Of a stretch of 45,420 nucleotides of DNA, positions 10,297 through 16,977 are shown one piece after another. Source of the DNA: a virus. A program made the translations under genes and the position numbers. Position 1 is the stretch's first letter, and every line of letters begins with the position of its first letter. A model generated the notes under the pieces. The model did no database searches, was not told where the DNA came from, and saw only the letters and a program-made list of their open reading frames with translations. The stretch is taken from IMG/VR virus record IMGVR_UViG_3300027865_000001. One strand, given 5' to 3'.

Positions 10297-10412
10297 TAGC
10301 TAAGAGCGTAACCGTTTATATATACTTCACTCGTAAGCGCAGTTATGGTACTGGTAGCTAAGCATAGTACGCATTAGTATAACTTCAATCGTATGCACAG
10401 TTACTAGATTAA
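10297..10412. repeat. Two tandem 58-bp units in the divergent control region
   Basis: Both units begin with tagctaag (10297 and 10355). They share acttcaNtcgtaNgcNcagtta at 10324-10346 and 10382-10404, about 19/22 identical. Confidence 0.7.
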
Positions 10413-10443
10413 GGATTAGGTAAATTGTCAATATGGTCAGCTT

Positions 10444-10464
10444 TGACAAAATGACATTTTGACA
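10444..10464. promoter_or_regulatory. TGACA x3 array at 8-bp phasing (left operator-like array)
   Basis: TGACA occurs at 10444, 10452 and 10460. Read on the minus strand this is TGTCAnnnTGTCAnnnTGTCA, pointing toward the leftward genes. Confidence 0.6.
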
Positions 10465-10473
10465 CTAGCCTGA

Positions 10474-10559
10474 GGTATCGGTATCTAGGGGTATGTTCCT
10501 ATCTCTTGCTGTATCTAATAGGTATGTATAGTAGTAGTATCTAAGTATAGGTATGTACT
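10474..10559. repeat. GTAT(C/G)-rich iteron-like cluster (origin or regulator-binding candidate)
   Basis: At least 7 copies of GGTATC/GGTATG/GTATCTA occur within 86 bp. The 11-mer ataggtatgta occurs twice (10518 and 10547), and gtatcta occurs at 10481, 10511 and 10537. Confidence 0.55.
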
Positions 10560-10680
10560 TATGAATTAGTAATGTTTAAATACACTCCTCTATACAGAGG
10601 CGAATCAGGTACTGTTAGATAGCTAGATATATACCTGTTACCTATAACATAGCCACGGATACGTACCCCTAAATAGGGGC

Positions 10681-10709
10681 TTGACACATCGTTGTCATTC
10701 TGTCAAAAT
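10681..10709 (+). promoter_or_regulatory. Sigma70-like early rightward promoter candidate
   Basis: TTGACA (10681-10686), a 17-nt spacer, then CAAAAT (10704-10709) preceded by TGT (extended -10-like). It lies about 90 nt upstream of the first + strand ORF. Confidence 0.4.
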
Positions 10710-10713
10710 GTCA
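10693..10713. promoter_or_regulatory. TGTCA x3 array at 8-bp phasing (right operator-like array), mirror image of 10444..10464
   Basis: TGTCA occurs at 10693, 10701 and 10709, overlapping the spacer and -10 of the candidate promoter. It is the reverse complement of the left array. Confidence 0.6.
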
Positions 10714-10798
10714 AATAGGGCCACTTTGCCAAAATTCCGATTTACTTCTTAGGTAAGGACTGGTCATACACTGTAAGTTAATAAAGGGAATAGATAAG

Positions 10799-10990
10799 AT
10801 GAGTAATAAAGATAAAGTAGTAGAGGGAGCTATGAAAGTATTACCCGTAGATACTAGCAAGTATAGCTCACGGACTTATTACAGGACAGGACAACCATAT
10901 ACTGGCTTAGGTCAGTGGTTGTTATATCAAGAACGTAAACTAAAAGGAAAAAGTTATGAAAGATACAATAGGTTTAATACATCCTGCTAG
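10799..10990 (+). CDS. Hypothetical early protein (63 aa)
   Basis: First ORF of the rightward arm, with AAGGGA upstream. It overlaps the next ORF by 35 nt, so the true extent is uncertain. Confidence 0.45.
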   Translation: MSNKDKVVEGAMKVLPVDTSKYSSRTYYRTGQPYTGLGQWLLYQERKLKGKSYERYNRFNTSC

Positions 10991-11189
10991 TTGCTGGCAT
11001 AGTGACAGTGCTGAGTTACGAGGTATGGAAATAGAAGTGGTAAATATTACCGACAGTTTATATATAAATGGTGTCAGAGTTAAAGGTTGGTACAATGCTT
11101 CAGTTAGAATTGTTAATCCACCAGCTAGTTGGAAGTGTGTTGCTGATCGCTTACATCTGAATGGCTTCCGTCCTCGGAGGGTAGCATGA
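10956..11189 (+). CDS. Small early protein, paralog A of the MKxxIGLI...GFRPRR family
   Basis: 77 aa with an AAGGAAA SD. The N-terminus MKDTIGLIHPAS and the C-terminus NGFRPRRVA match the 73-aa ORF at 15572. The 13-mer atggcttccgtcc is shared at 11161 and 15762. Confidence 0.8.
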   Translation: MKDTIGLIHPASCWHSDSAELRGMEIEVVNITDSLYINGVRVKGWYNASVRIVNPPASWKCVADRLHLNGFRPRRVA

Positions 11190-11398
11190 ACTGGACTAGC
11201 AACGTTAACAAACGTAAGAAGTGGGACCGTAGCGTTAGACGTATTGATCGCATTACTCGTACGCCTAATATTGATACTATCAAACGTAACCGTAAGCGTT
11301 GGAAGCTTATTTATAAACGAGCAGTGGATGTTCTCTACTGGGTTGCTATCATAGGTATCGGACTTGGTGCTATAGCTGTAGTAACTACCACAGGCTAA
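11186..11398 (+). CDS. Small tail-anchored membrane protein (basic N-terminus, C-terminal TM)
   Basis: 70 aa with an ATGA overlap to the upstream gene. It has a Lys/Arg-rich N-terminus and a C-terminal hydrophobic stretch VLYWVAIIGIGLGAIAVVTT. Confidence 0.7.
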   Translation: MNWTSNVNKRKKWDRSVRRIDRITRTPNIDTIKRNRKRWKLIYKRAVDVLYWVAIIGIGLGAIAVVTTTG

Positions 11399-11421
11399 GA
11401 GTCTTTATCAGACCCATAGTT

Positions 11422-11649
11422 ATGCTAATACAGATAGCTATGGTTCTTATTAAAGGTTTGTTAGATAAGAAAAGGAAGCTAGTAATGAAAGATAGATTAA
11501 CTGGTATTAAGATACGTAGTGCTGAACAAAGGCTAATACAATGCTTTGCTTTAGCTGAAAGCACTTCTAACCCTAAGCTACAAAAAGAGTGGCTTGATAA
11601 AGCTGTTGAACAGGAAGAAATTATTAAACAACTAAAAGGAAAGGAATAA
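11422..11649 (+). CDS. Hypothetical early protein (75 aa; alternative start at 11485 with an AAGGAAG SD)
   Basis: Track ORF. The internal Met22 is preceded by a better SD. Confidence 0.55.
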   Translation: MLIQIAMVLIKGLLDKKRKLVMKDRLTGIKIRSAEQRLIQCFALAESTSNPKLQKEWLDKAVEQEEIIKQLKGKE

Positions 11650-11653
11650 GATT

Positions 11654-12346
11654 ATGGGTACACAATCATGGACACCTAAGCATAAGCTAGGTATTGCTAT
11701 GCATCATATGTTACAAGCAGGTAAGAACCCTTGCTTTCGCATAGAAGGCTTACGTATTAGTGCTGCTAGTGATGTCAGTACTAATCCCGGATACCTTTAT
11801 ATTAAGGATGATAACTGGTCTTACATAGGTAAGATCTCACCAGCAGGATTGCTTAAGGTAAGGCACCCTAGCTTGATTACAGCTAAGCAGAAGCAACTAG
11901 TAATAGAAGCTATTAGTGAACCTGAGCGTATAGCTATGAACGATGGTAAGATTACTGGCACTTGCTGCTGCTGCGGTAGAACTCTTACTAATGCACTTAG
12001 TATAGAACTAGGTATCGGTCCGATATGCAGAGGTTTCTGGTTCCCTGATAGTGATAGCATGACTACTAGCCCTGAACAAGTACTTGTTAATCAAGAGAGG
12101 TTACTGGAAGAACTAGGTGCTAGTGGGCATGTAAAGGCAGCATCAGGTAGCTTTGCTATAGATGAAGATGGTAATGCTATCATACCAGAGCCTACTGAGT
12201 GCTTAGGTGAAATGCCTACTACTACAGTATTCTCTAAAGAGCCTGTACTTGAGATGTTTAGAGAGTTTAAGCTTCTTAATGATACTCAACAAGGCATACT
12301 TTACCATATGCTATCTACGGAGATGAAAGATAATGGCAACCTCTAA
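11654..12346 (+). CDS. DUF6011-like zinc-motif protein
   Basis: 230 aa containing TGTCCCCGRTLTNALSIELGIGPICRGF. This matches the CxxCGR-x-LT...S...GIGP-x-C signature I recall for phage DUF6011 domains. Confidence 0.6.
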   Translation: MGTQSWTPKHKLGIAMHHMLQAGKNPCFRIEGLRISAASDVSTNPGYLYIKDDNWSYIGKISPAGLLKVRHPSLITAKQKQLVIEAISEPERIAMNDGKITGTCCCCGRTLTNALSIELGIGPICRGFWFPDSDSMTTSPEQVLVNQERLLEELGASGHVKAASGSFAIDEDGNAIIPEPTECLGEMPTTTVFSKEPVLEMFREFKLLNDTQQGILYHMLSTEMKDNGNL

Positions 12347-12821
12347 ACACCGCTATCGTCCTGCTTTCTCTAAGGAAGAAGTAGAAGCACTAGATAGGAT
12401 ACTCAAGGTAGCTTACATAGATGACTTAGTGAAGCCACCTTACCATCCTGACAATCCACTTGATACTGCTAGATCATTCCCACCTACTGTAGAGGTAACA
12501 TTCCTTCAGCTTATGGGTAAGATAAGTACTCTCGTATCTAAAATAGCTAATGATGCTATAGTTCCTGCTTATACTATAATTAAGCATAGTGATCCTAAGA
12601 TAGCTATAATGGAGACTCTTGGAGCACATACAGATGAGATAGCTAAGCTTGATGGTACTGAAACTAAAGAACAGTATTGGGAAAGGTGTTACTTGAAGTA
12701 TCTAAAAGAGCCTATGTCTTGTACAGTACCTGAGATAGAAGCATTTCAAGAGTATAGATACTTACATGATCTTATGGCTGCTGATGAAGCTAGAGAATTT
12801 GAAGCTAAGGCAGGAGTCTAA
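12333..12821 (+). CDS. Hypothetical early protein (162 aa)
   Basis: Track ORF that overlaps the upstream gene by 14 nt and the downstream gene by 1 nt (TAATG). Confidence 0.7.
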   Translation: MATSKHRYRPAFSKEEVEALDRILKVAYIDDLVKPPYHPDNPLDTARSFPPTVEVTFLQLMGKISTLVSKIANDAIVPAYTIIKHSDPKIAIMETLGAHTDEIAKLDGTETKEQYWERCYLKYLKEPMSCTVPEIEAFQEYRYLHDLMAADEAREFEAKAGV

Positions 12822-13852
12822 TGGCTAATGTAACATGCGCCATTAGTGGCTTACGTTTTAAGATAGCAGGACTAGAAGGTACTGAGATACCAGCTAGTAT
12901 TGGCTACTATCATCCTATATTTACTCTCTCGCATAAGAAACTGTATACACTATATTATCAGCATACAAGAAACAAACTAACTCAGGTAGATAGCTACCTC
13001 TTGTTCTGTGCTTTCTTACAAGCTACAGGTCAAGTAGAATGGAATTCACCCGCCACCTGTAATCCTAGTGAAACTCATACTACTAAGTTAGTGCAGAACA
13101 ATTTAGCACAGCTTATTAGTGTCTATCAGAAAACATCTATAATTCAACATCCTTCTTTTAGACAACCCAGTTTCGTAGTAAACTATGATAATGGGCGTCT
13201 CGATCAGGTACATAACTGGATTGCAGCATGGCAACAGAACTTAGTAGATTTTAATGTCTCAAGAGCTACCTATGCACAGCAGCGGAGCTTACTTAAGATA
13301 GAAGCTTTACTAGATGAGAAGCTAGCTATAGGAATACCTGCTGAACAGTTACCGGGTATAGTAGCTAGCTGGGCTTCACAAGCAGCGGAGTTTCCTTATG
13401 AAAAGAACGAAGTTTACCAGCAGGTAATACGCTCTTGCTTTAACTCTGCTAAGATGTTTAAGACTCCACTAAATCTAATACGAGAAGTACAGCAGTATTG
13501 CTATGCTAATATAGAGCCAGAGTCTATACACTTCTTTACTTTAGCTGAAACTCTTAAGAAAGGAGTTGCATTACATCTAGATTACTTAGGTGGTTCCAAT
13601 TTAGCGTTAGGGTATACTATGCTAGATATAGATTCACTTAAGCTTACAACAGATCAGAAAGAAGGTGAGCTTAAGACTGCGGCAGCATTGACTAGCATAG
13701 TAAACAATGCGCCAACAGAACCACCGGTATTAATAGATTATCCTGATAAGCTGTCTTTCCTTAAAGCTAAGCTTGCTTACAAGGTAGCTGTTACACTTAC
13801 TACACCAGATACTAAACCTCCAATAAAAAATAATCCAGAGGATGCGCTATAA
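12821..13852 (+). CDS. Hypothetical protein (343 aa)
   Basis: Track ORF with TAATG coupling at both ends. No motif was recognised. Confidence 0.75.
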   Translation: MANVTCAISGLRFKIAGLEGTEIPASIGYYHPIFTLSHKKLYTLYYQHTRNKLTQVDSYLLFCAFLQATGQVEWNSPATCNPSETHTTKLVQNNLAQLISVYQKTSIIQHPSFRQPSFVVNYDNGRLDQVHNWIAAWQQNLVDFNVSRATYAQQRSLLKIEALLDEKLAIGIPAEQLPGIVASWASQAAEFPYEKNEVYQQVIRSCFNSAKMFKTPLNLIREVQQYCYANIEPESIHFFTLAETLKKGVALHLDYLGGSNLALGYTMLDIDSLKLTTDQKEGELKTAAALTSIVNNAPTEPPVLIDYPDKLSFLKAKLAYKVAVTLTTPDTKPPIKNNPEDAL

Positions 13853-15561
13853 TGACTAAGCATAAAATAGACTTTGCTGCCTTACTAGCTAAGGTAAAAG
13901 AGAACGCAGAAGCACCTCCCTCAGACACTACAACATTAGATGCTGTTGCTGAAGTATTGTCTACTAATGATACCATAACAGGTATGCACGGGGAGCTTAT
14001 CACCTATAACTCTAAGCAACAAGAGTTCATAGACTTAGCAGCAGCAGGTAAGTCATGTGTACTTATAGGTGCAGCAGGTACAGGTAAAACTACTTGCAGT
14101 CAAGGTGCGCTTAAAGCTATCCTAGCATCTACTGACTTAGCTATACCTCCGCTAATGTCTGATGGTCATAAGCACCTACGAGATAATACGCCCGGTGTAG
14201 TTATATGTTCTTACACTCGCCGCGCTGTTAATAACATTCGTAAGGTACAGACTGAGGATCTTAAGAATAACTGTATTACAGTGCATAAGCTACTAGAGTA
14301 TGCTCCTGTATACTATGAAGTATTAGATCCTGAGACTAATGAACTTAAGAATACCATGCGCTTTGAACCTTCCCGTAATGCACATAGGCCATTGCCTAGT
14401 TCTATCCATACTATCGTGATAGAAGAAGCATCTATGCTAGGTGGTTTACCTAAAGAGATGGGCGAAGGTAGAGGTGAGTTGTATAACCAACTACTAGCTG
14501 CTCTTGATCATGAGGTACAGTTCATATTCATAGGTGACATACAGCAGTTACCGCCAGTGTTTGGACCTGCTATCTTAGGCTTTAAGCTTAATGAATTACC
14601 TACTATAGAGCTTACGCAAGTGTACAGACAAGCTTTAGAATCACCTATCATTAAGCTAGCTCACCAGATACTTAGTGGTGTACCTATACCTTTAGAAGAA
14701 TACAAGGACTGGCATGTACCGGGTAAATTAACTATTCACCCGTGGAAAAAGAAACTACACCCAGACCACGCTATAATGACGTTAGCTGCATTCTTTAAGA
14801 AAAGTATAGATACCAAACTCTATAATCCTAATGAGGATATGATTCTTATACCTTACAATAAAGCTTGCGGTACATTAGAACTTAATCGCCACATAGCTAA
14901 CCACCTTGCAAGAAAGCGAGATGCTGTTACGCATGAAGTTATAGCTGGTTTTGTTAAAGTATACCTATCTGAAGGTGATAGGGTACTATATGATCGCGAA
15001 GATGCAGAAGTTGTAAGTATCGAGCTTAACCCCTCTTATACAGGTGCTAAGTACCAGTCATGTAGCATGAACCTAGACTACTGGGGACATAATCCTAAAG
15101 CAGTAGAAGAACGCGATGGACATAGAGCAAGCTATCATGAAGACGATGTAGACTTCTTATTAGAGCAAGTAGCTAGCTCAGATGATCGCGTTAACCAATC
15201 CTCGCATAAGATAGTAGTACGCTTACTAGATAGCGAGACTGAAGTAACATTATCAAGCAGTGCTGAAATTAATAGCTTACTACATGCTTATGCTCTTACA
15301 GTACATAAGTCACAGGGTAGTGAATGGCGTAAGGTGTTCTTAGGCTTTCACCAAAGTCATGCTGTAATGATGCAGCGAGAACTACTGTATACAGCAGTAA
15401 CCAGAGCAAGAGAAGAACTTTATGTAATCTGTGAGCCTGAGACCTTTACTAAAGGTATCATATCACAACGTATTAAAGGCGATACCTTAGCAGAGAAAGC
15501 AGAGTACTTTAAAGGTAAGTTACCTAAAGAAGTATTAAACCCAACACCAACTGAGTCATAG
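13852..15561 (+). CDS. SF1B DNA helicase (RecD/Dda-like)
   Basis: 569 aa. It has Walker A GAAGTGKTT, Walker B IVIEEASML, FIGDIQQLPPV, TVHKSQGSEW and LYTAVTRAREEL, which are the classical RecD-family motifs. Confidence 0.88.
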   Translation: MTKHKIDFAALLAKVKENAEAPPSDTTTLDAVAEVLSTNDTITGMHGELITYNSKQQEFIDLAAAGKSCVLIGAAGTGKTTCSQGALKAILASTDLAIPPLMSDGHKHLRDNTPGVVICSYTRRAVNNIRKVQTEDLKNNCITVHKLLEYAPVYYEVLDPETNELKNTMRFEPSRNAHRPLPSSIHTIVIEEASMLGGLPKEMGEGRGELYNQLLAALDHEVQFIFIGDIQQLPPVFGPAILGFKLNELPTIELTQVYRQALESPIIKLAHQILSGVPIPLEEYKDWHVPGKLTIHPWKKKLHPDHAIMTLAAFFKKSIDTKLYNPNEDMILIPYNKACGTLELNRHIANHLARKRDAVTHEVIAGFVKVYLSEGDRVLYDREDAEVVSIELNPSYTGAKYQSCSMNLDYWGHNPKAVEERDGHRASYHEDDVDFLLEQVASSDDRVNQSSHKIVVRLLDSETEVTLSSSAEINSLLHAYALTVHKSQGSEWRKVFLGFHQSHAVMMQRELLYTAVTRAREELYVICEPETFTKGIISQRIKGDTLAEKAEYFKGKLPKEVLNPTPTES

Positions 15562-15571
15562 GAGTAGTAAA

Positions 15572-15793
15572 ATGAAAAATGTAATTGGTTTAATTGGTCC
15601 AATGTCAGCTAGACACCATAGAAGTAAAGTACTTCGCAACAATCCAGATATAATTATAACTGAAATATGTAAATTATATAATGGATCAGATTGGTATTGT
15701 GGAAGGTTTACTCCACGTAAAAACATTGATGTATTTAAAGCTGGTAAATCTTATCCTATCTATGGCTTCCGTCCACGTCGTATAGCAGGGTAA
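15572..15793 (+). CDS. Small early protein, paralog B of the MKxxIGLI...GFRPRR family
   Basis: 73 aa. MKNVIGLIGPMS...YGFRPRRIAG aligns with the 77-aa ORF at 10956. AGGAG lies upstream. Confidence 0.8.
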   Translation: MKNVIGLIGPMSARHHRSKVLRNNPDIIITEICKLYNGSDWYCGRFTPRKNIDVFKAGKSYPIYGFRPRRIAG

Positions 15794-15796
15794 GTT

Positions 15797-15967
15797 ATGA
15801 TAGCGCCGACATGGTTCTTAGCTATAGTAATCATACTGACACTAGGTTTTATGGTATTAAATATATTATCTAGCCTAGTGTCAGCAGATACTCTTAAGTT
15901 TCTATTCGAAGAGGTATTATTCCCTGCCGTTATTCTCGGCATATTGGCTATACTCGTATCAATGTAA
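15797..15967 (+). CDS. Small two-TM membrane protein (56 aa)
   Basis: Hand-translated, below the track cutoff: MIAPTWFLAIVIILTLGFMVLNILSSLVSADTLKFLFEEVLFPAVILGILAILVSM. It starts 3 nt after the paralog B stop. Confidence 0.6.
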   Translation: MIAPTWFLAIVIILTLGFMVLNILSSLVSADTLKFLFEEVLFPAVILGILAILVSM

Positions 15968-15977
15968 GTCTAATAGC

Positions 15978-16000
15978 TATAGCTCGATGGCGTAGCTATA
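15978..16000 (+). promoter_or_regulatory. Conserved 14-mer atagctcgatggcg (copy 1) inside a 7-bp inverted repeat
   Basis: The 14-mer at 15979-15992 recurs at 17390-17403. Here it is flanked by tatagct/agctata arms. It lies upstream of the 278-aa gene. Confidence 0.5.
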
Positions 16001-16034
16001 AGCCATGCTATCTTGGATATGAGCAAATTCCCTA

Positions 16035-16063
16035 TTGACGGATTCTCGTATCCATGAGATCAT
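16035..16063 (+). promoter_or_regulatory. Sigma70-like promoter candidate for the 278-aa gene
   Basis: TTGACG (16035-16040), a 17-nt spacer, then GATCAT (16058-16063). It lies about 78 nt upstream of the ATG at 16141. Confidence 0.35.
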
Positions 16064-16140
16064 GGTTGTTCTGTTGAGAGACAACTCTCTTTTACCTTTT
16101 ACCCACTAACTAATTTACACACAAACAGGAAACAATTCTC

Positions 16141-16977
16141 ATGGACAACTTAGATCAACTTAAAGCAGGACAAGATGCAGGACAAGAAACGCCTGTAGAA
16201 GATAGCACCCAAGAAGCTGTAACACAAGAAGATGAGCTTACAGCAGCAGACATTACTACTACTGAAGTAATTGTAGAAGCAGGCAAGGAAGATATAACGC
16301 GGCATACGATTGCTGCACCTAACCCTTCTAAGGAAGAGATGGCAGAGTTGCTTAAAAACATCCAAGTTAACTACGACTCTAAAGTAGACGTTAAGCCGAT
16401 ACAGTTTAACTTTAAGAAGAACACTGACAAAGAGACTGGTATTGAAACTGTCCGTAACTCAGTACAGATTCCTATCCCTTTCCCATCAGTCGAAGGCGTA
16501 GTAGGTATCTTAGAAGCAGGTGGCTTGCAGATGGAACTGCTGTTTGAAGCTATCTATAAGATTGTTACTGACGCAGCAAGAGAGTACTTGTATGAAGATG
16601 TTACATTTACTGCTGCTACCTTCCCGATAGATCTAGTAACTTGGGATGCTATTAGCAAGCAACCTAAAGCACAGCGTCGTGGTGGTGGTATTGCTAAAGA
16701 AGTTTGGGAAGGCTTCGCTCAGGACTATGTTAACGTCATGCCATCTGTTACTGGTAAGACTGTTGAACAGATTGCTAATGCTGCTAAGATCCTTCTTGGT
16801 AAGCTGGCACAGGTTAAGACCAATGAACCTGTACTGAACCTTTTGGTAGGTCAGTTAGCTATCTACGCGGATAACTCTGAGAACATACAAGAGTATCAAG
16901 AGTGTGTTGAGTTCTTGCTTACCAAAGCAAACACATTCCTTAACGTTACAGATGAGCAGCTTCTGGCTAACCTGTAA
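16141..16977 (+). CDS. Hypothetical acidic-N-terminus protein (278 aa) in an apparently monocistronic unit
   Basis: Track ORF with an AGGAAA SD and a very acidic first 60 residues. It is followed by a strong intrinsic terminator. Possible paralog of the 247-aa ORF at 9117. Confidence 0.8.
   Translation: MDNLDQLKAGQDAGQETPVEDSTQEAVTQEDELTAADITTTEVIVEAGKEDITRHTIAAPNPSKEEMAELLKNIQVNYDSKVDVKPIQFNFKKNTDKETGIETVRNSVQIPIPFPSVEGVVGILEAGGLQMELLFEAIYKIVTDAAREYLYEDVTFTAATFPIDLVTWDAISKQPKAQRRGGGIAKEVWEGFAQDYVNVMPSVTGKTVEQIANAAKILLGKLAQVKTNEPVLNLLVGQLAIYADNSENIQEYQECVEFLLTKANTFLNVTDEQLLANL

What the first reader, a model, noticed from the sequence alone, without database searches (positions are those of the whole stretch)
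10956..11398. Duplicated early two-gene cassette, copy A: MKxxIGLI...GFRPRR protein plus a small membrane protein
The 77-aa ORF (10956-11189) and the 73-aa ORF at 15572-15793 are clear paralogs. About 14 of the first 36 residues are identical (MK..IGLI.P.S..H..S..LR....LY), and the C-terminal GFRPRR(V/I)A is identical. The 13-mer atggcttccgtcc is conserved at DNA level (11161 and 15762). Each paralog is immediately followed by a tiny membrane protein. Here it is a 70-aa protein with a basic N-terminus and a C-terminal TM anchor, joined by an ATGA overlap. Keeping two copies of a small soluble + membrane pair in the early arm of a 45-kb genome suggests a host-takeover, exclusion or anti-defence function with two specificities. 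I do not recognise the family.
Basis: seen in the sequence. Interest (0 to 1): 0.7.

Follow-up and report, generated by a model that had tools for sequence, protein, structure and literature searches.

The report
Duplicated orphan small phage protein
An uncultured 45-kb phage carries two diverged copies of a very rare, uncharacterised ~75-residue protein in its replication-gene operon, but the small membrane proteins next to them are unrelated neighbours, so only one gene was duplicated, not a two-gene cassette.

Summary
The two small ORFs (10956-11189 and 15572-15793) are true paralogs: BLASTP E=3e-7, shuffle z=9.9 (0 of 20,000), subfamily profile comparison 99.5% (E=1e-22). They belong to a very rare family with no Pfam, PHROG, NCBIfam or PADLOC match. 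It has 17 clusters among 5.8 billion proteins, all from metagenomic contigs with phage-like gene content. AlphaFold gives a confident compact beta-rich fold (pLDDT 92.7 for B) with no Foldseek match.

The "duplicated two-gene cassette" reading fails. The two membrane ORFs are not similar (1068 of 5000 shuffles score as high) and have different topologies. Family members in other contigs (L013, L014, L018, L027, L029, L032) have soluble downstream neighbours.

What is real:
- Copy A plus its membrane ORF forms a block of roughly 530-545 nt that is absent from a close relative (L001/L020) and is bracketed by a short direct repeat.
- Copy B plus a 2-TM micro-ORF is a conserved pair within one phage group.
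- B evolves much faster than the adjacent helicase (56% vs 91% identity; dN/dS 0.5 vs 0.1).
- A second, tandem paralog pair sits upstream of a helicase-like gene in L029.

I read this as a dispensable, fast-evolving early binding protein. Its function is untested.

The parts
10956..11189 (+). Paralog A, 77 aa. A-type member of the orphan small-protein family (MKDTIGLIHPxSxWHxDSxxLRG ... GWY ... GFRPRRV).
   Evidence: ORF. Homologs P0002, P0008, P0009, P0010, P0012 and P0015. AF2 pLDDT 81.9. Net charge +3.
15572..15793 (+). Paralog B, 73 aa. B-type member (MKNVIGLIxPxSARHHRSKxLxNNP ... GFRPRRI). The true start is at 15572; the public gene call (63 aa, P0003) is truncated.
   Evidence: AGGAG lies 7 nt upstream of the ATG and overlaps the helicase stop codon. 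AF2 pLDDT 92.7, pTM 0.78. Net charge +10.
11186..11398 (+). Neighbour of A: 70-aa ORF with a highly basic N-terminal 44 residues and one C-terminal TM (45-70). Shares an ATGA overlap with A. It is not related to the neighbour of B.
   Evidence: No homolog in any fetched locus or in phage records. It forms a singleton cluster at 90% identity.
15797..15967 (+). Neighbour of B: 56-aa micro-protein with two TMs, starting 3 nt after the stop codon of B. It is conserved in related phages, yet its exact sequence is not in the public protein collection and no gene is called at this position in the other assemblies of this genome.
   Evidence: Orthologs at L001 6895-7071, L017 672-851 and L031 694-870. 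dN/dS 0.26-0.30.
10940..11484 (+). Block (ribosome-binding site of A, gene A, membrane ORF, spacer) that is absent from the close relative L001/L020. There, the homolog of ORF 10799-10990 abuts the homolog of ORF 11485-11649 directly.
10952..10970 (+). Left copy of a short direct repeat (AGTTATGAAAGATACAATA) at the start of gene A. Possible microhomology at the boundary of the indel.
   Evidence: family D10. The right copy is at 11481-11499 (84% identity, spacing 529 nt). L001 has a single ATGAAAGATA at the junction.
11481..11499 (+). Right copy of the direct repeat (AGTAATGAAAGATAGATTA), at the probable true start (11485, MKDRLTG) of the next gene.
   Evidence: family D10. The L001 56-aa homolog starts MKDNLTG.
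10799..10990 (+). First gene of the rightward operon (63 aa). It overlaps the start of A by 35 nt. Its homology to the L001 49-aa ORF ends after YQERK (about 10939), at the left edge of the indel block.
10681..10709 (+). Sigma-70-like promoter candidate (TTGACA-17-TGnCAAAAT) upstream of the operon that carries A. The region is conserved in L001.
   Evidence: 10 of 12 matches. blastn 10665-10731 against L001 2197-2262, 82% identity. This is a consensus match only.
13852..15561 (+). Dda/RecD-like SF1 helicase. B starts 10 nt after its stop codon, so the two are probably co-transcribed.
   Evidence: The same helicase-then-B order is seen in L016 and L017, and in L001 with one extra ORF between them.
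16052..16089 (+). Two terminator-like hairpins followed by T-rich tracts, after the B + 2-TM pair. Probable end of the transcription unit.
   Evidence: Consensus match only.

Best explanation
The feature is a single small gene present in two diverged copies, not a duplicated two-gene cassette.

What is shown:
- A and B belong to a very rare family of 65-83-aa proteins, found only on metagenomic contigs with phage-like gene content.
- The protein folds into a compact beta-rich domain: strand 1, a loop, a short helix, a long beta-hairpin, and a C-terminal strand.
- The N-terminal segment (IGLIHPxSxxHxxSKxLRG) and the C-terminal strand (GFRPRR) are conserved across the family. The middle hairpin evolves fast.
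- Both copies sit in the rightward early/replication operon. A is the second gene, upstream of the DUF6011 gene. B lies directly after the SF1 helicase, in a slot that holds different small genes in more distant relatives.
- Copy A is dispensable: a close relative lacks it.

What is inferred:
- The protein acts as a small soluble binder that does not depend on the membrane ORFs.
- It docks through its conserved face on a conserved partner, and the variable hairpin adapts to a lineage-specific target.
- Because the B clade is strongly basic (+7 to +10), and because family members abut an SF1 helicase or helicase-like gene in two separate gene contexts, the most likely partner is DNA or the DNA replication/repair machinery. 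In that case the protein would modulate or protect phage replication early in infection.
- The membrane ORF after A is an unrelated passenger of the same indel block. The 2-TM ORF after B is a lineage-specific neighbour.
For: Paralogy.

Rarity and phage restriction:
- The exhaustive profile search listed 19 proteins at E<=0.001, of which 13 are small (65-83 aa), among 1.84 billion representatives.
- 17 clusters among 5.8 billion proteins.
- Nothing in INPHARED phage records, IMG/VR or GTDB genomes.
- No Pfam, PHROG, NCBIfam or PADLOC family.

Fold: AF2 pLDDT 81.9 for A and 92.7 for B, with the same order of secondary-structure elements.

Only the soluble gene is duplicated.

Family members whose immediately downstream gene is soluble: L013 (directly upstream of the DUF6011 gene), L014, L018, L027, L029, L032.

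Dispensability: block 10940-11484 is absent in L001 and L020, and the profile finds no A copy there.

Variable slot after the helicase: L021-L025.

Fast evolution: window against L001, B is 56% identical with dN/dS 0.50, while the adjacent helicase is 91% identical with dN/dS 0.10 at similar dS. By region, the middle has dN/dS 0.4-1.2 and the N-terminus 0.09-0.8.

Charge.

Helicase adjacency: window, L001, L016 and L017. Separately, in L029 a tandem pair overlaps the start of a gene fragment with a P-loop (GSGKTT) whose only Pfam match above threshold is ResIII, with sub-threshold UvrD and AAA_30 matches.
Against: - No experiment and no homology to any characterised protein ties the family to DNA or to helicases.
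- The helicase adjacency rests on only two separate gene contexts. Four other contexts are on contigs too short to judge.
- A-type members are only mildly basic (+1 to +8).
- The fast-evolving hairpin and patchy distribution fit a counter-defence or host-takeover inhibitor equally well.
- The tight spacing of A and B with their membrane ORFs (ATGA overlap; 3-nt gap), and the conservation of the B + 2-TM pair in four related phages, leave room for a lineage-specific functional link.
- The dN/dS estimates come from 73 codons and are noisy.
Confidence: 0.5

Rival explanations
1. Counter-defence or host-takeover inhibitor. A and B are small early proteins that each block a different host target (a defence system or a host enzyme). 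They were duplicated and diverged under an arms race, and they act without the membrane ORFs.
For: - Small, early, and located in variable slots.
- Sporadic distribution: absent from phages with 55-64% identical helicases.
- Copy A is missing in a close relative.
- B evolves about five times faster at non-synonymous sites than the neighbouring helicase, and dN/dS in the middle region reaches about 1 in some pairs.
- Paralog pairs recur: the window and L029.
Against: - No similarity to any known anti-defence protein or family.
- No regulator gene typical of anti-defence loci was noticed next to either copy; this was not searched for systematically.
- High dN/dS can also reflect relaxed constraint on a short accessory protein.
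- No host is known.
Confidence: 0.28
2. Each soluble protein works with the membrane protein encoded just downstream, as a two-component module for superinfection exclusion, lysis timing or membrane-targeted takeover. The phage keeps two such modules with different specificities.
For: - ATGA overlap between A and the 70-aa ORF, and a 3-nt gap between B and the 2-TM ORF.
- A and its membrane ORF are present or absent together relative to L001.
- The B + 2-TM pair is conserved in the window, L001/L002, L017 and L031, and the 2-TM ORF is under purifying selection.
Against: - The two membrane proteins are unrelated in sequence and topology.
- Six other family contexts have a soluble downstream gene, including an A-type member fused directly to the DUF6011 gene (L013) and a B-type member (P0006, L032).
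- The four phages that keep B + 2-TM are syntenic relatives, so they amount to one observation.
- From general knowledge, small membrane ORFs are common in phage early regions.
Confidence: 0.12
3. The paralogs act together as a hetero-oligomer, A with B. The family therefore tends to occur as two diverged copies per genome.
For: - Two separate two-copy arrangements use different subclade pairs: A + B in the window, and the P0021-like + P0017 tandem pair with overlapping genes in L029.
- The conserved N- and C-terminal strands could form a shared interface.
Against: - L001 covers both slots and has only B.
- L027 has a single copy with unrelated genes on both sides.
- The copies in the window are 4.6 kb apart and not adjacent.
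Confidence: 0.08
4. Chance similarity, or non-coding ORFs.
For: None beyond the short length of the ORFs.
Against: Shuffle z=9.9. hhalign E=1e-22. Orthologs are conserved in many contigs. AF2 models are confident.
Confidence: 0.01

Closest known systems
Tudor / Agenet / SH3-like small beta-barrel domains
   Same: Similar size and beta-rich character. The motif 'hydrophobic strand ... GWY.G.V' resembles Agenet/Tudor strands. There are weak, sub-threshold matches: PDB 6ie4 Agenet domain E=0.043; Pfam Agenet E=0.012 for one member and SH3_TNRC18 E=0.2.
   Different: - No match reaches significance.
- Foldseek with the pLDDT 92.7 model finds nothing in the PDB (best E=1.9, TM<=0.38).
- The A model aligns only loosely to SH3, chromo and ribosomal-protein barrels (TM<=0.44, E>1).
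- The conserved N-terminal IGLIHPxSxxH segment and the short helix have no counterpart in those domains.
I do not file the family under them.
Phage accessory early genes in variable slots ('morons', early ORFans, anti-defence genes such as anti-CRISPRs); a class known from the literature, not a sequence family
   Same: Small and early-transcribed. Inserted between conserved replication genes. Present or absent between close relatives. Fast-evolving and prone to duplication.
   Different: No sequence or structural link to any characterised member. No activity is known.
Small phage membrane proteins for superinfection exclusion (e.g. T4 Imm and Sp; from my own knowledge)
   Same: The two neighbouring ORFs are tiny, membrane-anchored and expressed from an early operon.
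   Different: No homology to any PHROG or Pfam family. This concerns the neighbours, not the duplicated gene. Function is untested.
BFVD A0A8S5N7D9 (uncharacterised protein of an uncultured siphovirus)
   Same: Best structural neighbour of the A model (Foldseek probability 0.99, TMq 0.60).
   Different: E=0.11, 13% identity, 114 aa, and itself uncharacterised. It gives no information about function.

Membership tests
   BLASTP E=3e-7; shuffle z=9.9; hhalign 99.5%.
   Score 25 against a shuffle mean of 21.8, with 1068 of 5000 shuffles as high. One TM against two TMs.
   L013, L014, L018, L027, L029 and L032 have a soluble immediately downstream gene. The adjacency is kept only in the syntenic B-type group: window, L001, L017, L031.
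Tudor/Agenet/SH3-like beta-barrels | Significant profile match to a family model | tested here: not met
   Best results are Pfam Agenet E=0.012 in 1 of 17 members and PDB Agenet E=0.043. Neither is a significant match.
Tudor/Agenet/SH3-like beta-barrels | Structural superposition on a solved barrel | tested here: not met
   Foldseek against the PDB: E>1, TM<=0.44 for A and <=0.38 for B.
Known anti-phage defence or anti-defence families (PADLOC, PHROGs) | Profile match | tested here: not met
   No hit for A or B. The only hit is a weak RmrT match (E=0.0077, 13.6 bits) to the basic segment of the neighbour of A.
Accessory fast-evolving phage early gene (a class, not a sequence family) | Presence/absence between close relatives, location in a variable slot, and a higher non-synonymous rate than core neighbours | tested here: met
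Accessory fast-evolving phage early gene (a class, not a sequence family) | Early transcription | not testable with these tools
   Only position in the rightward replication operon and a consensus promoter match. No expression data.

The most novel reading that the evidence does not exclude
The family is an undescribed fold that works as a pair of diverged paralogs to modulate an SF1 helicase, either the phage's own Dda/RecD-like enzyme or a host helicase/nuclease involved in defence. The fast-evolving hairpin would track the target. This would explain three things: two unrelated paralog pairs (window A + B; the L029 tandem pair), the genes lying directly beside a helicase or helicase-like gene in both contexts, and the strong positive charge of the B clade.
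Probability: 0.1. Interest if true: 0.6.

Novelty: new member of a known kind. Interest (0 to 1): 0.3.

Why it matters
If the family is shown to bind a defined target, it would add a new small fold to the set of phage early effectors. Such proteins have been a source of tools and of insight into host defences and replication control. As it stands, the result is mainly a correction and a catalogue entry: one undescribed orphan family, its boundaries and subclades, a corrected start for copy B, and a conserved 2-TM micro-gene absent from the public protein collection. The duplicated-cassette idea that made the finding attractive does not hold.

Tried and rejected
- Megablast of 10500-16200 against 50,697 phage records: no match.
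- tblastn of A, B and both membrane ORFs against phage records: only noise.
- Pfam, PHROGs, NCBIfam and PADLOC, on single proteins and on all 17 members: nothing significant.
- PDB sequence profile search: only sub-threshold Agenet and SH2-type hits.
- Foldseek against the PDB (twice) and BFVD: no hit with E<0.1.
- Pattern scans for the family in IMG/VR and in GTDB genomes: none confirmed. The JGI metagenome scan returned only the same phage and one known relative.
- Literature: no paper mentions DUF6011, and nothing relevant turned up for small early membrane proteins.
- The contig of the closest A-type relative (P0002, Logan SRR23867505, 21 kb) could not be read. I therefore could not check whether its 77-aa downstream ORF is a homolog of the 70-aa membrane ORF, or whether B is present after its helicase.
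- Metal-binding site: rejected, because none of the His/Ser positions in HPxSxxH is invariant.
- Holin or spanin role for the membrane ORFs: considered, but there is no evidence and they lie in the replication operon.

Full report
**The object.** The window is a complete, uncultured phage genome of about 45.4 kb. The same sequence is assembled as contigs of about 45.3-45.7 kb in JGI, ENA and Logan data. It has an SU10-type major capsid protein that is 35-40% identical to those of Aeromonas phage P5 and Pseudomonas phages 119X and PaP2. Its replication block contains a DUF6011 protein, a Dda/RecD-like SF1 helicase, a PD-(D/E)XK nuclease, AAA_24, a family A DNA polymerase, DUF3987 and a DHH protein. 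No phage record shares nucleotide similarity with the region. Genes from 10799 to about 26838 run rightward from a divergent intergenic region with sigma-70-like promoter matches.

**Checking the observation.** Both ORFs exist as described. The residue counts, the shared GFRPRR, the 13-mer at 11161 and 15762 (2 matches against 0.01 expected) and the ATGA overlap are all correct. The paralogy is solid:
- BLASTP gives 34% identity over the full length, E=3e-7.
- The local alignment score is 67 against 23.1 ± 4.4 for 20,000 shuffles, none of which reaches it.
- Each copy is the other's top hit among all 330 stop-to-stop segments of the window.
- Profiles of the A-type and B-type subfamilies align end to end with 99.5% probability, E=1.3e-22.

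Both downstream ORFs are predicted membrane proteins.

**The family.** Word-indexed searches found two or three relatives per copy. An exhaustive profile search of 1.84 billion representatives listed 19 proteins at E<=0.001. Of these, 13 are small proteins of 65-83 aa; the rest are long repetitive proteins matched in short stretches. A profile search of 5.8 billion clusters gave 17 clusters, all without Pfam domains or names. Nothing was found in cultured phage records, IMG/VR or GTDB genomes. Pfam, PHROGs, NCBIfam and PADLOC give nothing significant.

The alignment shows a conserved N-terminal IGLIHPxSxxHxxSKxLRG, a central GW(Y/F), and a C-terminal G(F/I)R(P/F)(R/L)R. G6, L7, P10, W45 and R72 are invariant. 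There are at least four subclades: A-type, B-type (with NNP), P0014/P0017, and P0021/L029a.

AlphaFold2 gives the same order of secondary-structure elements for both copies: strand, loop, short helix, long hairpin, C-terminal strand. pLDDT is 81.9 for A and 92.7 for B, with pTM 0.78 for B. Foldseek finds no significant neighbour in the PDB or BFVD. The only hints are sub-threshold Agenet/Tudor/SH3-like sequence matches. I therefore treat it as an undescribed small domain, perhaps distantly barrel-like.

**Is it a two-gene cassette?** No, for three reasons:
- The two membrane ORFs are unrelated. 1068 of 5000 shuffles score as high, and their topologies differ: a basic N-terminus plus one C-terminal TM, against two TMs.
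- Downstream neighbours elsewhere are soluble. In L013 the A-type member overlaps the start of the DUF6011 gene directly. In L014, L018, L027 and L029 the next gene is soluble. In L032 a B-type member is followed by a soluble 59-aa protein.
- The 70-aa neighbour of A has no homolog in any fetched locus.

Two narrower points remain true:
- The B + 2-TM pair is conserved in the syntenic phage group (window, L001/L002, L017, L031). The 2-TM ORF is under purifying selection (dN/dS about 0.3), although its exact sequence is not in the public protein collection and no gene is called at this position in the other assemblies of this genome.
- A and its membrane ORF lie together in a block that is missing from the close relative L001/L020. 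By homology edges the block is 10940-11484 (about 545 nt). There the flanking genes abut with an ATGA overlap. The block is bracketed by the direct repeat AGT(T/A)ATGAAAGATA at 10952 and 11481, spaced 529 nt apart. This is compatible with a microhomology-mediated deletion or insertion. A short two-copy repeat can be chance, so I report it as a lead.

**Evolutionary behaviour.** Phages whose helicase is 55-64% identical (L021-L025) lack the family. They fill the slot between the helicase and the conserved 230-278-aa gene with other small genes, some themselves duplicated.

Between the window and L001, B is 56% identical (dN 0.41, dN/dS 0.50). The helicase immediately upstream is 91% identical (dN 0.077, dN/dS 0.10) at similar dS. 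The excess change sits in residues 24-62, where dN/dS is 0.4-1.2, against 0.09-0.8 for residues 1-23. These values come from 73 codons and are noisy.

B-type proteins carry a net charge of +7 to +10. A-type proteins carry +1 to +8.

A second two-copy arrangement exists in L029. Two members from different subclades lie in tandem with overlapping genes, directly upstream of a gene fragment with a P-loop (GSGKTT). Its only Pfam match above threshold is ResIII (23.9 bits against a cut-off of 22.5); the UvrD-helicase and AAA_30 matches are below threshold.

**Most likely mechanism.**
- Shown: the family encodes a dispensable, fast-evolving, soluble small domain in early/replication operons. It is duplicated here as a single gene.
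- Inferred: it acts as a stoichiometric binder. The conserved N- and C-terminal face contacts a conserved partner, and the hairpin adapts to a variable one.
- Preferred partner: given the charge of the B clade and the repeated position beside a helicase or helicase-like gene, I favour DNA or the replication/repair machinery. A counter-defence or host-takeover inhibitor is nearly as likely on this evidence.

**Novelty and verdict.** The family is undescribed and very rare, and its predicted fold has no detectable neighbour. But nothing here points to a new kind of system. It is one more orphan accessory gene family of phages, with a duplication. Interest is modest (0.3).

Noticed in passing
window 15797-15967 (+): A 56-aa two-TM micro-gene whose exact sequence is not in the public protein collection, and no gene is called at this position in the other assemblies of this genome. 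It is nevertheless conserved in L001, L017 and L031 with dN/dS about 0.3, so it is very probably a real gene.
   Followed up: yes
window 15572-15793 (+): Public gene calls start copy B at an internal Met (63 aa, P0003). Family-wide conservation of MKxxIGLI, and an AGGAG 7 nt upstream, place the start at 15572.
   Followed up: yes
window 10952-10970 and 11481-11499: The direct repeat AGT(T/A)ATGAAAGATA brackets the block (gene A + membrane ORF) that is missing in L001/L020; the two copies are 529 nt apart. Possible microhomology for the indel. It also suggests that ORF 11422-11649 really starts at 11485 (MKDRLTG).
   Followed up: partly
L029 584-787 and 784-1011 (also L030): Two family members from different subclades lie in tandem with overlapping genes, directly upstream of a P-loop (GSGKTT) gene fragment that matches Pfam ResIII. 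This is a second, separate two-copy arrangement.
   Followed up: partly
L021 4983-5569; L022 5895-6444; L024 and L025 downstream of the helicase: The slot between the helicase and the conserved 230-278-aa gene is hypervariable in related phages. It often holds locally duplicated small genes: two 81-86-aa paralogs in L021, and 71-aa and 106-aa paralogs in L022.
   Followed up: partly
L014 2549-2731, L018 897-1067, L032 864-1043: A conserved ~57-aa soluble protein (THNALHIKKKIRPLDYKPD...GARVNIPS.LVVALREG.VEL) lies within a few genes of the family member in three contigs of a different phage group.
   Followed up: no
window 11161-11173 and 15762-15774: The shared 13-mer uses identical codons for GFRP in both copies, while the orthologs in L001 and L013 differ at synonymous sites. 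This may be chance or a small gene-conversion tract.
   Followed up: no
window 10300-10798: The divergent intergenic region holds two similar promoter-like elements (TTGTCA-16-CAAAAT at 10425 and TTGACA-17-CAAAAT at 10681) and a 25-nt repeat at 10345 and 10528. Parts of it are conserved in L001. It is probably the early control region.
   Followed up: no
window 11654-12346 (+): A 230-aa protein with a DUF6011 CCCCGR...GIGP.C motif (Pfam E=2e-13; PHROG 4046). It is conserved next to the family in L013 and in the relatives. No paper in the library mentions DUF6011.
   Followed up: no
window 10799-10990 (+): The first gene of the operon overlaps the start of A by 35 nt. Its C-terminal 16 residues have no counterpart in the L001 homolog, as if the 3' end had been remodelled by the indel.
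   Followed up: partly
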